DNA of 64,000 nucleotides from positions 4,340,001 through 4,404,000 of the forward strand of contig OZ281495.1 of the NCBI GenBank assembly GCA_965637545.1, in the 5' to 3' direction. The stretch comes from Phallusia mammillata (lineage: Eukaryota). Position numbers: made by a program. Numbering within the stretch: position 1 is the stretch's first letter; the number at the start of each line of letters is the position of its first letter. Shown here piece after piece: positions 3,001-54,000 of this stretch.

Positions 3001-6000
3001 CAAAGACCTACATGGTTTCACACTACACTTTTTACAAAATAGTTTTCGGTGTTGTTCTGTAATTATCTAACAAGTATAAATGGTAGTTGTGTAGAGTTCC
3101 AATGGAACTAGGAGATTTGTTGCTATTTTGTTTTGATCACCAAGTGTAAAACACAGTTGCAAAACACCATTTAACGCCTAAAGCAATGCGTCGTCTGCAG
3201 GGTGTCGCAACTCACCACAAGGTGTCGTTTGTTGACCACATAGTGTCGCTGTTGAGCAGCAAGTTATACTATTCAACCTCAGTCAAATATGATCTGTTTA
3301 AACTCTCCAGGTTCCCAAGTACTTTCATTAACTTTGCTATGCGTAACCTGATCGGAATTTCTTGGACCCCAATACTTATCTTTTGCGTAGATAACTGTCC
3401 ATGTCACTGTTTCTACCAAATCTGTATCACATACTTGAACTAAATATAATACTCCTTGGTACTCTGTTGCCCAGGTTGTATCAGTAGGTGCAAAGTCGAA
3501 AGAACCACAATTGCACCCTGCAAAAGTGTTATGGTAGTTTTTTCATTCCATGTTTTTTATTCACGACGTACAAGTCACATGACGAAAGGCAGTTTGGCAT
3601 AAATTTAACTTGATGACAAACGATTCTACTGAGTTAGTAACACGGGGGTATCAACAGAACCCAAGTTTTATTATAAAACAATCATTTCTCTATTGTGGTC
3701 TTTTGCAAAATATTACACGGTGATTTTTTGTGACAAATTGTCGAATTTAAATTGTTACTTTTTTTGTTGTTTTTGCTTGACATCACACAATCAAGTTATA
3801 CGTAGCAACTTACCTAAGCTTGTAACCGTTCCACACCAAACAATGACAAAAATAAAGCACAATTCAATCATGTTAATCTATCTATTTCAACAGAAAGAGA
3901 TTCAGTTTAAACGATCACTAGCAAAAAGTTAAAAAGACATTTGTTTGCTTAAATTCGATCACATCAAAATTTTCCGAAAATTGCAAACAAACAACAATTA
4001 GGTTTACAGCCAAGTAGACTTGAATACAATAAAATTAGCAAGTCAAAAAAGGAGTGAGCACAAAAACATTAGATTTAGGCACTATATCTCTGAATGCTAA
4101 TGTATGGTTAAATTATTTTTTAAACATATCAAACAAAAACCAAGAAAAATTTTGACTGTTCTGCAGATATTGCGAATGCATATAAAATAAGCCACATCTA
4201 GCGTTGCTGTGGTTCTATGTCCATCCGAATCTCTTGAGGTTTGCTTATATGCAATTGTGATTTAAACGGGAAAAAAATAATAAAACGCTTTCATATTTTT
4301 ATTGACCAGAGTAAACCGAAAACTGAATGTTGTGTAAATACCTTTGTAAGAAAGAAAATCCTGAATGGATTTTTTGGTCGATTTGGAATATCCATGCTAT
4401 ACGGCAGGGTTGGGTTATGCATGTGTCTTTGCCCTTAATCTGCTGCTTTCGAGAACTTGAAAATAATTTAACATCGCATTATGCTTTGTAAACGATGTTC
4501 ACAAACCTGTAGAGTTAGCTGCAACTAGTATAAAAAATTTTATCAAGATCCGAATATACTTGTGAAGTAGATTGAAATAATAAATATTTAAAAACAAACA
4601 AGTGATTTTCAAACAATTGCTTTATGAGGTTTCACCTTTATATTTAATGTGCTGTTGCATATTTGTATCGAGTAAAATTATATCTCCATAAAAACAAGCG
4701 GACGAACTTGAACCGTAACAACTGGCATATTTTGACTGGTATATTTTGCCCGACCGTTTCTTGTCTAAAATGCGTAAGTGGAAAGTTACTGTGTTTGTTT
4801 GTTTTTGCCTGGTGATAATCACTTTCGCTGTGACAGTGACACAATACGGGCGAAATGCGTGTGAGAACAATGAAGTCGGGTTGACGAATTAAAAACTAAA
4901 AAGAAAACGTTTATATAAGGATATGGCTCATTCTTTATCACTTACAGCAGATTTTTTTCTGTCTAAGTATGCAATTGCTTCCTCGTATTTTTTCTATGCC
5001 TTGTGTTACTTTTGTCAGTGTGGTAATGGATGAAAAAAAAATTTTGCATCAAAATTATTGTCATTCTAATCTTTATGTGAAAGAAACGAAAGTCGATGTG
5101 GACTTTGTAGCGACAAATATTGCACTTTCAAACCTTTGTTTCTCTTTCGCTCAAATATGAGCAAATAAATTTCAACAAGGGCTGCATCGGCCATGTAGGC
5201 ACGTATAAATATTATAGATGATATCGTTTTATGTTCGAAACTTCTTGGCCTATTAGTTACCAATTATCTTCAAAGTTGCTTATGTGATCGGCGTAGCGGT
5301 TCCACATGACATTGTCACAGATTTCTTTACAGCCCTGTCGGTTCGAGTAGCAATGAAAATTCTCCACCAGTGATGTGACTATTACTCGATGTTTAATTCA
5401 ATGTTCATATTAAAGTCTTTGTCTCTCTCTCTAAATGTTTACCATGGAATTGTCCATGTAGGCACATATAAATATCAGATGTGATTGTAAACGATTTAAC
5501 GTCTTTTATAACGGCCTTTGACAATTCGTTTGTAAATAGCAGTCTGGTGTTTTGCTCACCTTACGATCGTCTAAAAACGTGTCCGAAACTCGCTTCTATT
5601 GTTTGTCTAAGGCCAAGCAAGCACGTAAACGCTTTAGTTTCATTTTACAACACCATTGTCAGTGGAAAATACTTCAATGTTCGAATGGGTTATATTCGAT
5701 AGCTTTTGGTATGTGGCTGTTCAGATACATGTTGCTGTAGCCAGCCAAACTGTGTTCATTGGTGATCTGATCAGGTTTTGAAAAAAACAATCACATCAGT
5801 TAGGCAAACATGAGATTGAGGGTTTCGTTAACGTTTTTATTGTGTGTTTTACTTAATGCGGAATTCACATTTTCAAGTAAGTTTGTGTTTTAACAATTTG
5901 TAATTTTATTTTCTCAAAAAAAAATATAGGCCTATATATATATATATATATACTTGTTGTTCGTTATCTACAGGTTGTAGTTGTGGCTCCTATAACTTTT

Positions 6001-51000: not shown

Positions 51001-54000
51001 ACAAATAAACCTTACAATGTGTGCGGCCAATTGTGTTTGCTCAAGTTACACAGTCAACATGGTTGGTGTCAAAGTCTGTACCAGCACGATGAAGGTCAGC
51101 TGCTTTTTAGAAACATCTATAGCTATTGCTATTTTTTGTGTTTTAACGTTAACGTTCACTACAGTAGTTTTAGCAGGTTTTGTTTATAACTTGAAAAAAT
51201 GTCTATGTGAATCTATTCCCTTTGGTGTGGTTCTATAAAAAAATGCTCGATGGCACAACCCTTAAGGAGGGTTTGTGATCCGACTTCTGGACAAGGTTTT
51301 AGTTTATATCGGGCAATTAATAACGTATTATCCTCCAGCTAAGCTTAAGCTTGTAGTTGGGCGACGGATACGAGTTCTATACCAGTCTAAAATAAAGTTA
51401 ATAAAAAAAAGTTCAAAACTGTAGTGTGGTTAAATAGCGCAATGTGGGGCTGTAGGGCAATGTAAGACGGGGACATTATTCAATAGGTTTCATTATAAAC
51501 ATAGAAATACGTTAATACAGCATGATATGAATATGAATCTTTCTCTTGGAAATCGATGTAGCATTGTCTTCGTTTTGAGTGTCCTGTACTCTGTTCGAAC
51601 CTCTTGAAACAGGTTTAGTTGACAACAAACACATTAAACCACTTTCGTTTTGTGTGTTTACACCCGACGGGCCGCTCAAATAAACAGAACTATTAGTAAA
51701 TTTGTTACGAAAAGTTGGAAAATAAATTTGTCACTAAAGTAGAAATGACAAGACTTCATTTTGGCCCATCAGTTATAAGTTAGGAACCCACTTACCTCGC
51801 GGATGACCCATATTTTGCTAATTATTTATATGTGGCGCATAAGCTAATTTCTTTATTAGGCAGCTAAAGGGGAATAGGTTTAGAATGTATGTCTAGTAGT
51901 TTACATGAGAAATTAAGTTTTATAGCTAGTTTTATCGAATTTTGAATGGTAGCACCTCACCCCGACTGTAACAGCCTTAACCGTGTAAAGTTTACTGAAG
52001 TATCGTTTTAAATGGGTCAATGTGCTTATTGCGCCATCTATCAAAACTTACCTTAATGTGGGCTTGTCGTGATGTATTGTGTTCAGGATTTACCCAACTA
52101 TTGGCACAAAAGTTACTTAAAGTGTTATAATGACTACACTGTAGTCACTACAGTGTGATAAAGGCAACGTTTAAGTGATTTGTTATTCAAGGTTGGTAGT
52201 ATGATTTACTTTTTGTGTTGTCATTCTCTCATACAGTTTTCTTTTAGCTTCCTATGCTTTAGTTGTAAACCAGAAAAAAAATTAAAATGAATTTTTGCTT
52301 GACAATGTGTTTGGCTTTGTTGTTGTTCTGTTCGAAACCATGTACTGCTGGAGAAATCGTTATAGCAAGTGTGTTTCATATTTGAAACAATGTTGATAAA
52401 AATAGTGTTTTAGAATGACGGACTAAGAATTTTCTTTGTAGACTGTGATTGTTCATTGGTCAACTTCTCTCCAATGTACACAACGTGGGCATTACAATAC
52501 AAAGGAACTTTATACACAGCTCAATTGTGCGATATCACATCTGTGTCATGGACTATCAACTATCCAGATGGGAGCACCGAAGTGGCCGCATCTGTTTTGC
52601 TGCTAGACAATAGTTGGATTACGACCAGTTTATTTCCTTCAAGCTCATCATTTACCACAACACTAACTCAACAAACAAACAAATTGTATCAACACAACAT
52701 TGCAAGCCACAGATCCACTAAAATCATCTGCAAATGGAAGCAATTTTGAATTAGTTTCACTCTCAACATCTTCCGCTCAAGCATGCACCGCTAGCGAAAA
52801 CCTATACATCACAGGTAAACTTGTTCAATTTTAAATAAACTAACATTGTGCATTTTAAAACGTTATGCATACGTCAAAATAACCATATTGCAAAGGTTGC
52901 AGGCAAGCATTATTTGATAATGTAGTGGTTATTTCATCTGAAATAACGTACGATTCATCGGGAACGTTTGGTTGTTCAAGTGATGGAAAACTTTTCTACA
53001 CAAATGGGACAGAATTAACAAACAACGAAACAGTTTGTTTGAAATCAGCTCAATGGTTGGGCCAGACTGGATTACAATGCTGGGGAGGTATGTTGAATAA
53101 CTAGTAAGGTTTGTAGTAAAATATTAAACACGCTCCCATTCGATTTTGACATGTTGTTTAGCTCGTTTTGTTAAAACATAACTAAGGTTTTGCTACTAAT
53201 ATTTTGTTAACATTGATTAAGTAACAAGGTCATACTAACGGAGTAAAACGGCTGTTTTTCTGCTCCAGTTACTGTTATGTTGCACGAAAATTCCACTTCC
53301 TGTAATGTGGTTGGCGACACATTAAGCTTGTCATGTTTATACGATGACACATTGCCACAAGGAAATACGACAAAATTTTTTGTGGGATCAAACAGTTTTG
53401 TTGTTCTTAAGGTGCAAATTTTGAATTTTGGGCATCTTTGTATAAACGTCTTTTTCAAAAATCGTTCCTTTTTTAGGGCGACGTAGCTTATATTTTACTA
53501 CAAGAAGAACAAACTAGTTTGCAAATATTTTGCCAAGCTGTAACTCCTTACACTCAAATATACTCACAATATGGAAGATCGGATGTTATTACTATTGATG
53601 CGTTTTGTAAGTATTTATTCTGTTATTGATTCTCCGTTTATAAATGATAGTTGTTTTGTTTTTTTTAGCAAAACCCGAAAAGGCCGAAACTTCCATTGAA
53701 ACATCAAATGACGTCATAAAACATGGAACGACGTTCTTTCTTAATTCATTCCAAACTGTTCCGCTTCATTGCACAAGTGATATTGATTCATTTAATTGTG
53801 TTTGGAAATTTAACCAAACACATATTTCAGCCTCATGTGACACCACCCAATATTTCAACCAGTCAGGGTTCGTCACGTGTCATGTTTCAAACTGTGCTGG
53901 ATCAAAAACAAGCTTTTCCACGGAAATAGTTGTGGTACAATTAAGTATGTATTTGCAAGATGTGAATGTTATAAATTCGCTTTGATAATTGCGTACTATG

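What the first reader, a model, noticed from the sequence alone, without database searches (positions are those of the whole stretch)
5974..52814. Membrane-distal domain is much more divergent than the adjacent sushi domain
Exon 2 differs strongly between copies, e.g. YWGSRSFDQATY (A), YWGSRSHDYAMY (B) and HWGSERSDETTY (E). F and H lack this segment altogether (YPSGGAETATY; YPDGSTEVAAS). The next sushi exon keeps TVCL(Q/K/E)SA(Q/L)W.GQ.GLQCW almost unchanged. This is the pattern expected of a diversified ligand-binding tip on a conserved stalk. The domain itself is atypical: CxC start, W..Y.G..Y, C, then a V.WT..YP motif.
Basis: partly seen in the sequence, partly recalled or inferred. Interest (0 to 1): 0.65.

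Follow-up and report, generated by a model that had tools for sequence, protein, structure and literature searches.

The report
Receptor gene cluster with variable head domain

Summary
The window holds a + strand array of type-I membrane receptor genes: signal exon, a 122-aa all-beta "exon 2" domain, a divergent sushi exon, 3-5 Ig-like domains, a TM segment and a tyrosine-motif tail. Three copies (A, B, E) are intact. Three (C, F, H) carry frameshifts or stops, including in exon 2. G and a minus-strand relic are fragments.

Exon 2 is more divergent than the sushi exon: 46-55% against 59-68% amino-acid identity among A/B/E, and 42% against 70% for F-H. It is not more divergent than the membrane-proximal exon. 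Its pN/pS (0.44) equals that of the other six exons pooled (0.44). Invariant sites are not significantly commoner in strands than in loops (p=0.15). The "conserved sushi" rests on its last 18 codons. The F/H extremes come from broken exons evolving almost neutrally (0.71 against 0.38).

Exon 2 has no Pfam or PDB match. Its one detectable relative among 1.84 billion proteins is the C-terminal domain of a Ciona savignyi C-type lectin protein. The closest described system is the Botryllus fester co-receptor (FcoR) family. Membership could not be tested.

The parts
5810..5876 (+). Copy A, candidate signal-peptide exon (exon 1)
   Evidence: ATG, hydrophobic stretch and a phase-1 GTAAGT donor about 100 nt upstream of exon 2. 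Analogous candidates lie at B 12061-12127, C 16604-16676, E 24427-24496, F 40582-40660 and H 52287-52368. Inferred from pattern only.
5974..6339 (+). Copy A exon 2, N-terminal all-beta domain, intact
   Evidence: Phase 1-1 AG/GT borders. Open frame of 121 codons.
6400..6591 (+). Copy A sushi-like exon, intact
   Evidence: Four Cys and one Trp are invariant across 5 copies.
12190..12561 (+). Copy B exon 2, intact
12620..12811 (+). Copy B sushi-like exon, intact
16729..17093 (+). Copy C exon 2, pseudo-exon with a frameshift near 16840
   Evidence: The homologous peptide continues in another frame.
17150..17290 (+). Copy C sushi remnant: N-terminal part missing, TGA at 17257-17259 in place of the conserved Trp codon
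24876..25247 (+). Copy E exon 2, intact; the sequence that was folded
   Evidence: AlphaFold2 model with pLDDT 76.1, pTM 0.75 and nine strands.
25313..25507 (+). Copy E sushi-like exon, intact
25730..27860 (+). Copy E stalk: split Ig1 (two exons), IgX1, IgY1, IgX2, IgY2 and a two-exon membrane-proximal module
   Evidence: tblastn map. IgY1 and IgY2 match Pfam Ig_3 at 1.2e-08 and 1e-08.
28115..28354 (+). Copy E transmembrane exon
   Evidence: Hydrophobic segment IIVIAASVVGGIAFVAIVIGAIVFF. The A homologue gives weak TM-segment Pfam matches.
28877..30156 (+). Copy E cytoplasmic tail region: several short open frames, most carrying NPxY and/or xYAxV (DVYAAV, EAYAKV, EPYAQV, DAYAMV, DTYATV)
   Evidence: Exon borders were not determined.
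40842..41154 (+). Copy F exon 2, pseudo-exon: stop after 14 codons in the entry frame, N-terminal TTW..Y.G.LY block missing, remainder in another frame
   Evidence: A second frameshift lies in F Ig1b near 42255.
41216..41407 (+). Copy F sushi-like exon, open
   Evidence: Atlas neighbours are Sushi-bearing clusters.
48037..49232 (+). Copy G: 3' fragment only (membrane-proximal, TM and tail), no exon 2 or sushi
   Evidence: 80% identical to the F 3' end over 822 nt.
52442..52814 (+). Copy H exon 2, pseudo-exon: frameshift inside a (CAAA)n run near 52670-52690
   Evidence: H also has a frameshift in IgY2 near 54960 and no IgY1 exon.
52896..53087 (+). Copy H sushi-like exon, open
3282..3517 (-). 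Relic of an exon-2-like exon on the opposite strand, ending in a stop, with nothing homologous after it
   Evidence: tblastn 32% identity over 78 aa, E 1.9e-12. Read.

Best explanation
The region is a tandem family of lineage-restricted type-I membrane receptor genes evolving by birth and death. The host is probably a tunicate. Each gene encodes, in order: a signal peptide; a 122-residue all-beta N-terminal domain (exon 2) of an undescribed family; one divergent sushi/CCP module; a stalk of three to five Ig-like domains whose number changes by loss or gain of exon blocks; a small Cys-containing membrane-proximal module; one TM helix; and a tail with tyrosine motifs. Three genes look functional (A, B, E). 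Three are pseudogenes (C, F, H) and two are fragments. Among the intact genes exon 2 is, with the membrane-proximal exon, the least constrained part of the ectodomain, but it is still under purifying selection (omega about 0.3-0.45). Its extra divergence is matched by extra synonymous divergence. It is therefore best read as weaker constraint plus an older, less homogenised 5' module in a mosaic gene family, not as demonstrated diversifying selection. The most extreme exon-2 differences (F, H) belong to a second head type whose copies here are all broken and evolve nearly neutrally. What is inferred, not shown: the head (exon 2 plus sushi) binds a ligand, the stalk sets its reach, and phosphorylated tail tyrosines recruit SH2/PTB adaptors. 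The two tail types (YxN and YEE[IV] against NPxY and xYAxV) would then give different signals.
For: Anatomy. The exon map comes from tblastn. Phase-1 AG/GT borders are conserved across copies. All homologous exons are open in A, B and E. Ig_3 matches occur in the IgY exons.

Disruptions. C has an exon-2 frameshift and a TGA in the sushi exon. F has an exon-2 truncation and frameshift and an Ig1b frameshift. H has an exon-2 frameshift, an IgY2 frameshift and no IgY1 exon.

Selection. Per-exon pN, pS and ratios with 500 bootstraps are. The difference tests give exon 2 minus sushi pN +0.035 to +0.171, and a ratio difference against the six other exons of -0.12 to +0.13. The F-H exon-2 ratio is 0.71 (0.49-1.01) against 0.38 (0.30-0.47) for seven other exons.

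Mosaicism. A and E are 77.5% identical over 1035 nt from Ig1a to IgY1, introns included, but 68.7% over the 654 nt covering exon 2 to sushi. Introns beside exon 2 are no more alike than shuffled controls, whereas the A-E IgX1-IgY1 intron is (0.74 vs shuffled maximum 0.66). The stalk composition differs between copies: A X1-Y1, B X1-Y2, C X2-Y2, E and F X1-Y1-X2-Y2, H X1-X2-Y2.

Domain. Exon 2 has no Pfam match and no PDB sequence match. It has one library hit, P0001, a named Ciona savignyi C-type lectin domain protein. Homology is supported by hhalign at 94.8% probability, E 5e-8, over 103 columns. The AF2 model is all-beta with pLDDT 76.

Known parallel. The Botryllus FcoR architecture and its birth-and-death evolution are described in PMC12582321 (Results parts 1-3 read).
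Against: pS in exon 2 (0.61-0.65) is near saturation, so ratios are rough and episodic or site-specific positive selection would be invisible. Only three intact paralogues exist, with no alleles and no orthologues. The F-H excess in exon 2 could equally be past diversifying selection. Short pieces of exon 2 reach pN/pS 0.94 (25 codons, A-E) and 1.81 (18 codons, A-B). The frameshift in H lies in a (CAAA)n run and could be an assembly error. Expression, splicing, ligand and signalling are all unobserved. The tunicate origin rests on one distant homologue.
Confidence: 0.6

Rival explanations
1. One reading: exon 2 is a ligand-binding tip driven apart by diversifying selection, as in allorecognition or NK-type receptors, on a conserved sushi/Ig stalk.
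For: Exon 2 has the highest pN together with the membrane-proximal exon. It is less conserved than sushi in 4 of 4 pairs. F-H exon 2 has pN/pS 0.71 against 0.38 elsewhere. Two head types exist, with and without the YWGS loop. In the architecturally similar Botryllus FF1, 52 of 116 variable allelic positions lie in the N-terminal domain (PMC12582321, Results read).
Against: The exon-2 pN/pS equals that of the other exons (0.44 vs 0.44) and ML omega is 0.09-0.48. Synonymous divergence is raised too. Invariant sites are not significantly commoner in strands than in loops (p=0.15). The stalk is not uniformly conserved: membrane-proximal pN is 0.289 and the first 45 sushi codons give 0.244. The F and H exon 2 sequences are broken.
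Confidence: 0.25
2. The contrast is mainly historical. Recombination or gene conversion has homogenised the middle and 3' exons between copies, while the 5' module (exon 2 with its flanking introns) has escaped. It looks older at all classes of site, with no difference in selection.
For: pS is 0.633 in exon 2, 0.366 in IgX1 and 0.409 in the TM exon. A-E identity is 77.5% mid-gene against 68.7% at the 5' end, introns included. Intron similarity survives only mid-gene. The nearest pair changes by exon: A-E at sushi, A-B at the TM exon. X/Y exon blocks are reshuffled. Intergenic recombination is reported for Botryllus FF/FcoR (PMC12582321).
Against: pS of the sushi exon (0.550) and of the membrane-proximal exon (0.552) is also high, so there is no clean 5'-3' gradient. 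The intervals overlap. With three sequences no formal recombination test was run. It does not explain why the last 18 sushi codons are so tight at the protein level.
Confidence: 0.35
3. The pattern is mostly pseudogene decay. Exon 2 was lost first, for example by skipping of a symmetrical phase 1-1 exon, in some lineages and then drifted. The reader compared dead exons with live ones.
For: 3 of 6 exon-2 copies on the + strand are frame-disrupted, each in a different way. The F-H exon-2 ratio interval reaches 1.0, while the rest of those genes kept 0.38. Exon 2 is phase 1-1, so skipping it keeps the frame.
Against: The intact trio A/B/E still shows exon 2 more divergent than sushi. The short-loop F/H head resembles the Ciona outgroup, so it is a real second type and not only decay.
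Confidence: 0.2

Closest known systems
Fester co-receptor (FcoR) family of Botryllus schlosseri (Rodriguez-Valbuena et al., PNAS 2025, PMC12582321: outline and Results parts 1-3 read; review PMC12065747: passages read)
   Same: Both are type-I proteins with a signal peptide, an N-terminal about-120-aa beta domain directly followed by one sushi domain, then Ig-like domains, one TM segment and a tail with tyrosine motifs. Both lie in clusters with copy-number change, intergenic recombination and low paralogue identity. One E-tail motif (DVYAAV) fits their core-2 pattern [A/D]VYxxV. YEEV and YEEI in A and B fit core-1.
   Different: FcoR has two Ig domains after the sushi domain and is 520-610 aa. 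These genes have three to five Ig-like domains plus a membrane-proximal module. Tails of A, B, C, F and G are built on YxN motifs. No paired three-TM fester-family gene is seen in the window. The N-terminal domain here gave no significant Ig match in Foldseek.
Fester family (FF1/fester, FF3/uncle fester) of Botryllus
   Same: The N-terminal domain followed by a sushi domain forms the membrane-distal head. Variation is concentrated in the ectodomain (PMC12582321).
   Different: FF proteins have three TM segments, no Ig stalk and no tyrosine motifs.
C-terminal domain of Ciona savignyi C-type lectin domain-containing protein H2Y4E4_CIOSA (P0001)
   Same: It is the only detectable sequence relative of the exon-2 domain: hmmsearch E 8.2e-4 and hhalign 94.8% over 103 columns. 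It shares TW..Y.G.LY..FC and C..TT..V motifs and has the short loop seen in F and H.
   Different: It follows a C-type lectin domain (PF00059) in a 290-aa protein with no TM exon, sushi or Ig domains. It lacks the CxC start.
Vertebrate paired NK/leukocyte receptor clusters (KIR, LILR, Ly49); analogy only, recalled from general knowledge
   Same: Tandem arrays with pseudogenes and fragments, variable domain number and alternative tail types.
   Different: No homology is shown. Those receptors lack the N-terminal domain and the sushi module.

Membership tests
Sushi / CCP domain (Pfam PF00084), for the exon after exon 2 | Match to the family profile | tested here: not met
   0 of 5 sushi exons matched PF00084 at E<=10. 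The E exon with flanks gave 0 families at E<=0.1. A profile of the 5 exons found no PDB chain at E<=10.
Sushi / CCP domain (Pfam PF00084), for the exon after exon 2 | Four cysteines and a tryptophan before the last one, in about 60 residues encoded by one phase 1-1 exon (consensus recalled) | tested here: met
   C1, C27, C48, W54 and C62 are invariant in 5 of 5 copies. The exons are 192-195 nt with phase 1-1 borders.
Sushi / CCP domain (Pfam PF00084), for the exon after exon 2 | Neighbours in protein-language-model space are sushi proteins | tested here: met
   24 of 30 hits fall in clusters carrying PF00084. The top score is 0.95 with 196 of 256 shared features and recognition 2646. This is lead-level evidence by the tool's own caveats.
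Sushi / CCP domain (Pfam PF00084), for the exon after exon 2 | CCP fold | tested here: inconclusive
   The AF2 model has pLDDT 56.1 and pTM 0.38. Foldseek gave 0 matches at E<=0.001. The model is too poor to judge.
Immunoglobulin superfamily, for the exon-2 domain | Match to Ig profiles or to this family's own Ig exons | tested here: not met
   Pfam gave 0 families for exon 2 of E and B. hhalign against IgY exons gave 0.3% and against IgX exons 0.1%. The control of IgY against IgX reached only 2%, so power is low.
Immunoglobulin superfamily, for the exon-2 domain | Ig-like beta sandwich fold | tested here: inconclusive
   The model has nine strands, pLDDT 76.1 and pTM 0.75. Foldseek against the PDB gave 0 hits at E<=0.001. 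The best TMq is 0.47, to a phage tailspike domain. Ig-like hits are UL141 at E 0.025 and TMq 0.37, and CTLA-4 at E 0.18 and TMq 0.30. Many jelly-roll and lectin hits score at the same weak level.
Botryllus FcoR family | Domain order: signal, N-terminal beta domain, sushi, Ig domains, one TM, tyrosine-motif tail | tested here: inconclusive
   The order is the same, but there are 3-5 Ig-like domains plus a membrane-proximal module instead of two Ig domains (PMC12582321).
Botryllus FcoR family | Sequence homology to published FcoR proteins | not testable with these tools
Searches with exon 2 and with the sushi exons returned no such protein.
Botryllus FcoR family | Tail motifs: ITIM, hemITAM, core-1 YxxI/L/V, paired core-2 [A/D]VYxxV | tested here: inconclusive
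   E has DVYAAV plus four xYAxV motifs. A and B have YEEV and YEEI. The dominant motif in A, B, C, F and G is YxN. The spacing rule for core-2 pairs was not tested because exon joins were not made.
Botryllus FcoR family | Head-to-head pairing with a three-TM fester-family gene (chromosomes 5 and 11; absent from the chromosome 9 cluster) | tested here: not met
   The only trace is a truncated exon-2 relic on the minus strand upstream of A. Minus-strand ORFs of 75 aa or more show no other family exon. This is a weak test.
Carbohydrate-binding module family 2 (PF00553), for the exon-2 domain | Similarity to CBM_2 | tested here: inconclusive
   The top three Atlas hits are CBM_2-bearing clusters (one with CBM_2 on only 13% of members), but at scores of 0.86-0.87 with recognition 1606, below the tool's own thresholds. 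Pfam gave no match.

The most novel reading that the evidence does not exclude
The exon-2 domain is a previously undescribed, tunicate-restricted recognition module. It comes in two head types, is shared with a secreted Ciona C-type-lectin protein, and caps an FcoR-like receptor cluster in a species where no such system has been described. The cluster would then be an independent or deeply diverged branch of the fester/FcoR allorecognition or innate-recognition machinery. Its two tail types would act as opposed signalling arms. Allelic diversity, which cannot be seen in one haplotype, would be concentrated in the head.
Probability: 0.3. Interest if true: 0.65.

Novelty: new variant of a known kind. 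Interest (0 to 1): 0.4.

Why it matters
[quoted passage not shown] A cluster with the same head-sushi-Ig-tail plan but a different stalk and different tails would give a second data point on how such receptor families arise and turn over. So would a head domain shared with a Ciona lectin. For the finding itself the lesson is methodological. Higher amino-acid divergence of one exon among paralogues is not evidence of diversifying selection when synonymous divergence rises with it and half the copies are pseudogenes.

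Tried and rejected
1. A word-index search with E exon 2 against longer proteins scored none of 28 candidates. The same search with the 5 sushi exons scored none of 7324 candidates.
2. Rfam over the whole window gave 0 matches.
3. PDB sequence profiles for exon 2 and for sushi gave 0 hits at E<=10.
4. The AF2 model of the sushi exon was too poor (pLDDT 56), so its Foldseek list is meaningless.
5. Foldseek of the exon-2 model gave no significant match. An Ig-like fold is neither shown nor excluded.
6. The Atlas lead to CBM_2 is below the tool's thresholds and was not adopted.
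7. hhalign of exon 2 against the family's own Ig exons gave nothing, but the control shows low power.
8. YN00 failed in 9 of 21 pairs. NG86 and ML were used instead.
9. Intron identity as a neutral yardstick failed. Most introns are no more alike than shuffled sequence.
10. Pfam on other Cys-rich ORFs and on tail exons gave nothing useful.
11. A look in the Botryllus genome paper for GC content found no passage.
12. I rejected the idea that the window simply holds the published FcoR genes, because domain number and tail motifs differ. Without their sequences this is not proven.

Full report
Scope and limits. The window is 64 kb, 34-39% G+C, and has no N. I do not take it for human. Its genes have short introns and no close relative in the protein libraries, and the only detectable relative of the domain in question is a Ciona savignyi protein. 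Statements that need the whole protein therefore remain open: the spacing of tail motifs, the head as a two-domain unit, and total length. The supplement of PMC12582321, which holds the FcoR sequences and figures, could bear directly on the membership question.

- a candidate signal exon;
- exon 2;
- a sushi-like exon;
- an Ig domain split over two exons (Ig1a and Ig1b);
- alternating IgX and IgY exons;
- a two-exon membrane-proximal module;
- a TM exon;
- tail exons.
Exon 2 and the sushi exon are phase 1-1 in every copy where borders can be read.

Copies with exon 2 are A (5974), B (12190), C (16729), E (24876), F (40842) and H (52442). G (48037-49232) is a 3' fragment. A truncated exon-2-like relic lies on the minus strand at 3517-3282.

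2. Which copies are alive? A, B and E have open frames in every homologous exon.
- C has a frameshift in exon 2, a sushi exon that lacks its N-terminal part, and a TGA in place of the conserved Trp codon.
- F enters exon 2 in a frame that stops after 14 codons. It lacks the TTW..Y.G.LY block and continues in another frame. It has a second frameshift in Ig1b.
- H has a frameshift inside a (CAAA)n run in exon 2, another in IgY2, and no IgY1 exon.

3. How divergent is exon 2? I made codon alignments per exon and computed Nei-Gojobori proportions.

Among A, B and E, amino-acid identity is 0.46-0.55 in exon 2 and 0.59-0.68 in sushi. It is 0.55-0.72 in Ig1a, 0.68-0.72 in Ig1b and 0.62-0.67 in IgX1. 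It is 0.50-0.55 in the membrane-proximal exon and 0.56-0.60 in the TM exon.

Mean values over the three pairs, with 500 bootstraps:

| Exon | pN | pS | pN/pS (95% interval) |
|---|---|---|---|
| exon 2 | 0.281 | 0.633 | 0.44 (0.35-0.55) |
| sushi | 0.180 | 0.550 | 0.33 (0.22-0.51) |
| Ig1a | 0.196 | 0.472 | 0.42 |
| Ig1b | 0.140 | 0.501 | 0.28 |
| IgX1 | 0.203 | 0.366 | 0.56 |
| membrane-proximal | 0.289 | 0.552 | 0.52 |
| TM | 0.221 | 0.409 | 0.54 |

Exon 2 has significantly higher pN than sushi (difference 0.035-0.171) and than the six other exons pooled (0.023-0.137). Its ratio is the same as theirs, 0.44 against 0.44, with a difference of -0.12 to +0.13. Pairwise ML gives omega 0.48, 0.29 and 0.09 for exon 2, and 0.21, 0.41 and 0.24 for sushi.

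Within exon 2, no block exceeds 1 except an 18-codon piece in one of three pairs (1.81). The loop block reaches 0.94 in one pair.

The sushi exon is conserved mainly in its last 18 codons, TVCL...QCW. Those give pN 0.073 and pS 0.400. Its first 45 codons give pN 0.244 and pS 0.663 (means of 10 pairs).

For F against H, exon 2 was compared in 88 codons taken either side of the breaks. It has identity 0.42, pN 0.353 and pS 0.500. Its ratio is 0.71 (0.49-1.01), against 0.38 (0.30-0.47) for seven other exons. In 0.2% of bootstraps the difference was zero or less.

4. Where are the variable sites? On the AlphaFold2 model of E exon 2 (pLDDT 76.1, pTM 0.75, nine strands), invariant columns among A/B/E are 26 of 58 in strands and 13 of 43 in loops within residues 11-111. 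The Fisher p is 0.15. The YWGS segment lies in the long loop between strands at residues 33-39 and 51-58.

5. A mosaic history. A and E are 77.5% identical over 1035 nt from Ig1a to IgY1, introns included, but only 68.7% over the 654 nt from exon 2 to sushi. F and H are 80% identical over 1356 nt of the stalk, yet exon 2 does not align at that threshold. Introns flanking exon 2 are no more alike than shuffled controls, whereas the A-E IgX1-IgY1 intron and the F-H IgX2-IgY2 intron exceed every shuffle. Stalk composition differs between copies: A X1-Y1, B X1-Y2, C X2-Y2, E and F X1-Y1-X2-Y2, H X1-X2-Y2. The pair that is closest also changes from exon to exon. The 5' module thus seems older or less homogenised than the middle of the genes. 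This by itself raises both pN and pS there.

6. What is the exon-2 domain?
- Pfam finds nothing and a PDB sequence profile finds nothing.
- A full HMMER pass over 1.84 billion representative proteins finds one protein at E<=0.001, P0001 (E 8.2e-4).
- P0001 is UniRef H2Y4E4_CIOSA, a 290-aa Ciona savignyi protein. It has a C-type lectin domain (PF00059, 3.1e-10), followed by the matching region.
- hhalign of the window's alignment against P0001 gives 94.8% probability and E 5e-8 over 103 columns. BLASTP of the H piece gives 34% identity over 50 residues, E 4e-6.
- P0001 has the short loop of F and H rather than the YWGS loop. The F/H form is therefore a second head type, possibly the older one, and not merely decay.
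- Foldseek of the model against the PDB has 0 hits at E<=0.001. The weak top hits mix phage tailspike domains (best TMq 0.47), the Ig-like UL141 (TMq 0.37), lectins and capsid jelly rolls.
- The Atlas gives only sub-threshold CBM_2 neighbours.
The domain is an all-beta sandwich of an undescribed family. An Ig-like fold is not established.

7. Is the next exon a sushi domain? Pfam does not recognise it in 0 of 5 copies, and the fold prediction failed. However, the four Cys and the Trp are invariant, and the exon has the size and phase typical of CCP modules (recalled). Also, 24 of 30 Atlas neighbours are Sushi-bearing clusters, with a top score of 0.95. I accept it as a divergent sushi domain.

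8. Comparison with what is known. Three full-text searches point to one described system with this plan, the fester family and fester co-receptors of Botryllus schlosseri. FcoRs are type-I proteins with a signal sequence, an N-terminal Ig-like domain, a sushi domain, two further Ig domains, one TM segment and tails carrying ITIM, hemITAM, core-1 (YxxI/L/V) or paired core-2 ([A/D]VYxxV) motifs. They lie in clusters that vary in copy number and recombine between genes. One cluster holds FcoR genes only (PMC12582321, Results parts 1-3; review passages).

The present genes share the order of parts and the style of evolution. E carries DVYAAV plus four further xYAxV motifs, four of them in frames that also carry NPxY. 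A and B carry YEEV and YEEI.

They differ in four ways. They have three to five Ig-like domains plus a membrane-proximal module. The tails of A, B, C, F and G are dominated by YxN. No paired three-TM gene is present. No sequence link could be made. In those papers the N-terminal domain was called Ig-like from Foldseek E-values of 0.5 to 2.65e-05. My best Ig-like hit, at E 0.025, falls inside that range but is not significant here.

9. Verdict. What is there is a birth-and-death cluster of FcoR-like receptors, with three live genes, three dead ones and two fragments. Their head domain belongs to an undescribed family with a single detectable relative. The head is probably the ligand-facing part, but that is inferred from position and analogy only.

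Noticed in passing
window 126-1715 (+): Protein kinase ORFs just upstream of the cluster. The 350-aa frame at 666-1715 matches PK_Tyr_Ser-Thr (PF07714, 5.6e-27) and Pkinase. The frame at 126-452 gave no Pfam match.
   Followed up: partly
window 3282-3517 (-): A truncated exon-2-like exon sits on the opposite strand, head-to-head with copy A, and nothing homologous follows it. In Botryllus, FF and FcoR genes sit head-to-head. This could be the trace of a lost partner gene.
   Followed up: partly
window 7231-7831, 13384-14052, 17830-18433, 26173-27488, 42333-43677, 53668-54960: The number and type of IgX/IgY exons differ between copies: X1-Y1, X1-Y2, X2-Y2, X1-Y1-X2-Y2 and X1-X2-Y2. Stalk length therefore changes by exon-block loss or unequal exchange.
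   Followed up: partly
window 28877-30156 (E); 8882-9130 (A); 15016-15180 (B); 44951-45172 (F); 49038-49232 (G): There are two tail types. E has a run of short frames carrying NPxY and/or xYAxV. A, B, C, F and G have D[LV].Y.NT. A and B add YEE[VI] and Y.ND, and F adds Y.ND. Exon joins and phosphorylation are untested.
   Followed up: no
window 59245-61380 (+): IgX-like and IgY-like frames of a further partial family member flank ORFs of a retroelement at 59513-60495. Pfam RVT_1 matches only weakly, E 0.051.
   Followed up: partly
window 44514-45319 vs 48592-49399: Copy G is an 80%-identical duplicate of only the 3' end of F, covering TM and tail.
   Followed up: partly
window 57633-57810 and 57824-58001: Two adjacent 178-nt segments are 91.6% identical. 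This is the most similar repeat pair in the window.
   Followed up: no
window 21508-21753 (-) and 63311-63583 (-): Cys-rich open frames on the minus strand look like small disulfide-rich extracellular modules. Pfam gave no significant match.
   Followed up: partly
window 6537-6590 and homologues: The last 18 codons of the sushi exon also have lower synonymous divergence than the first 45 (pS 0.400 vs 0.663). This could reflect local conversion, a nucleotide-level constraint or chance in a short stretch.
   Followed up: no
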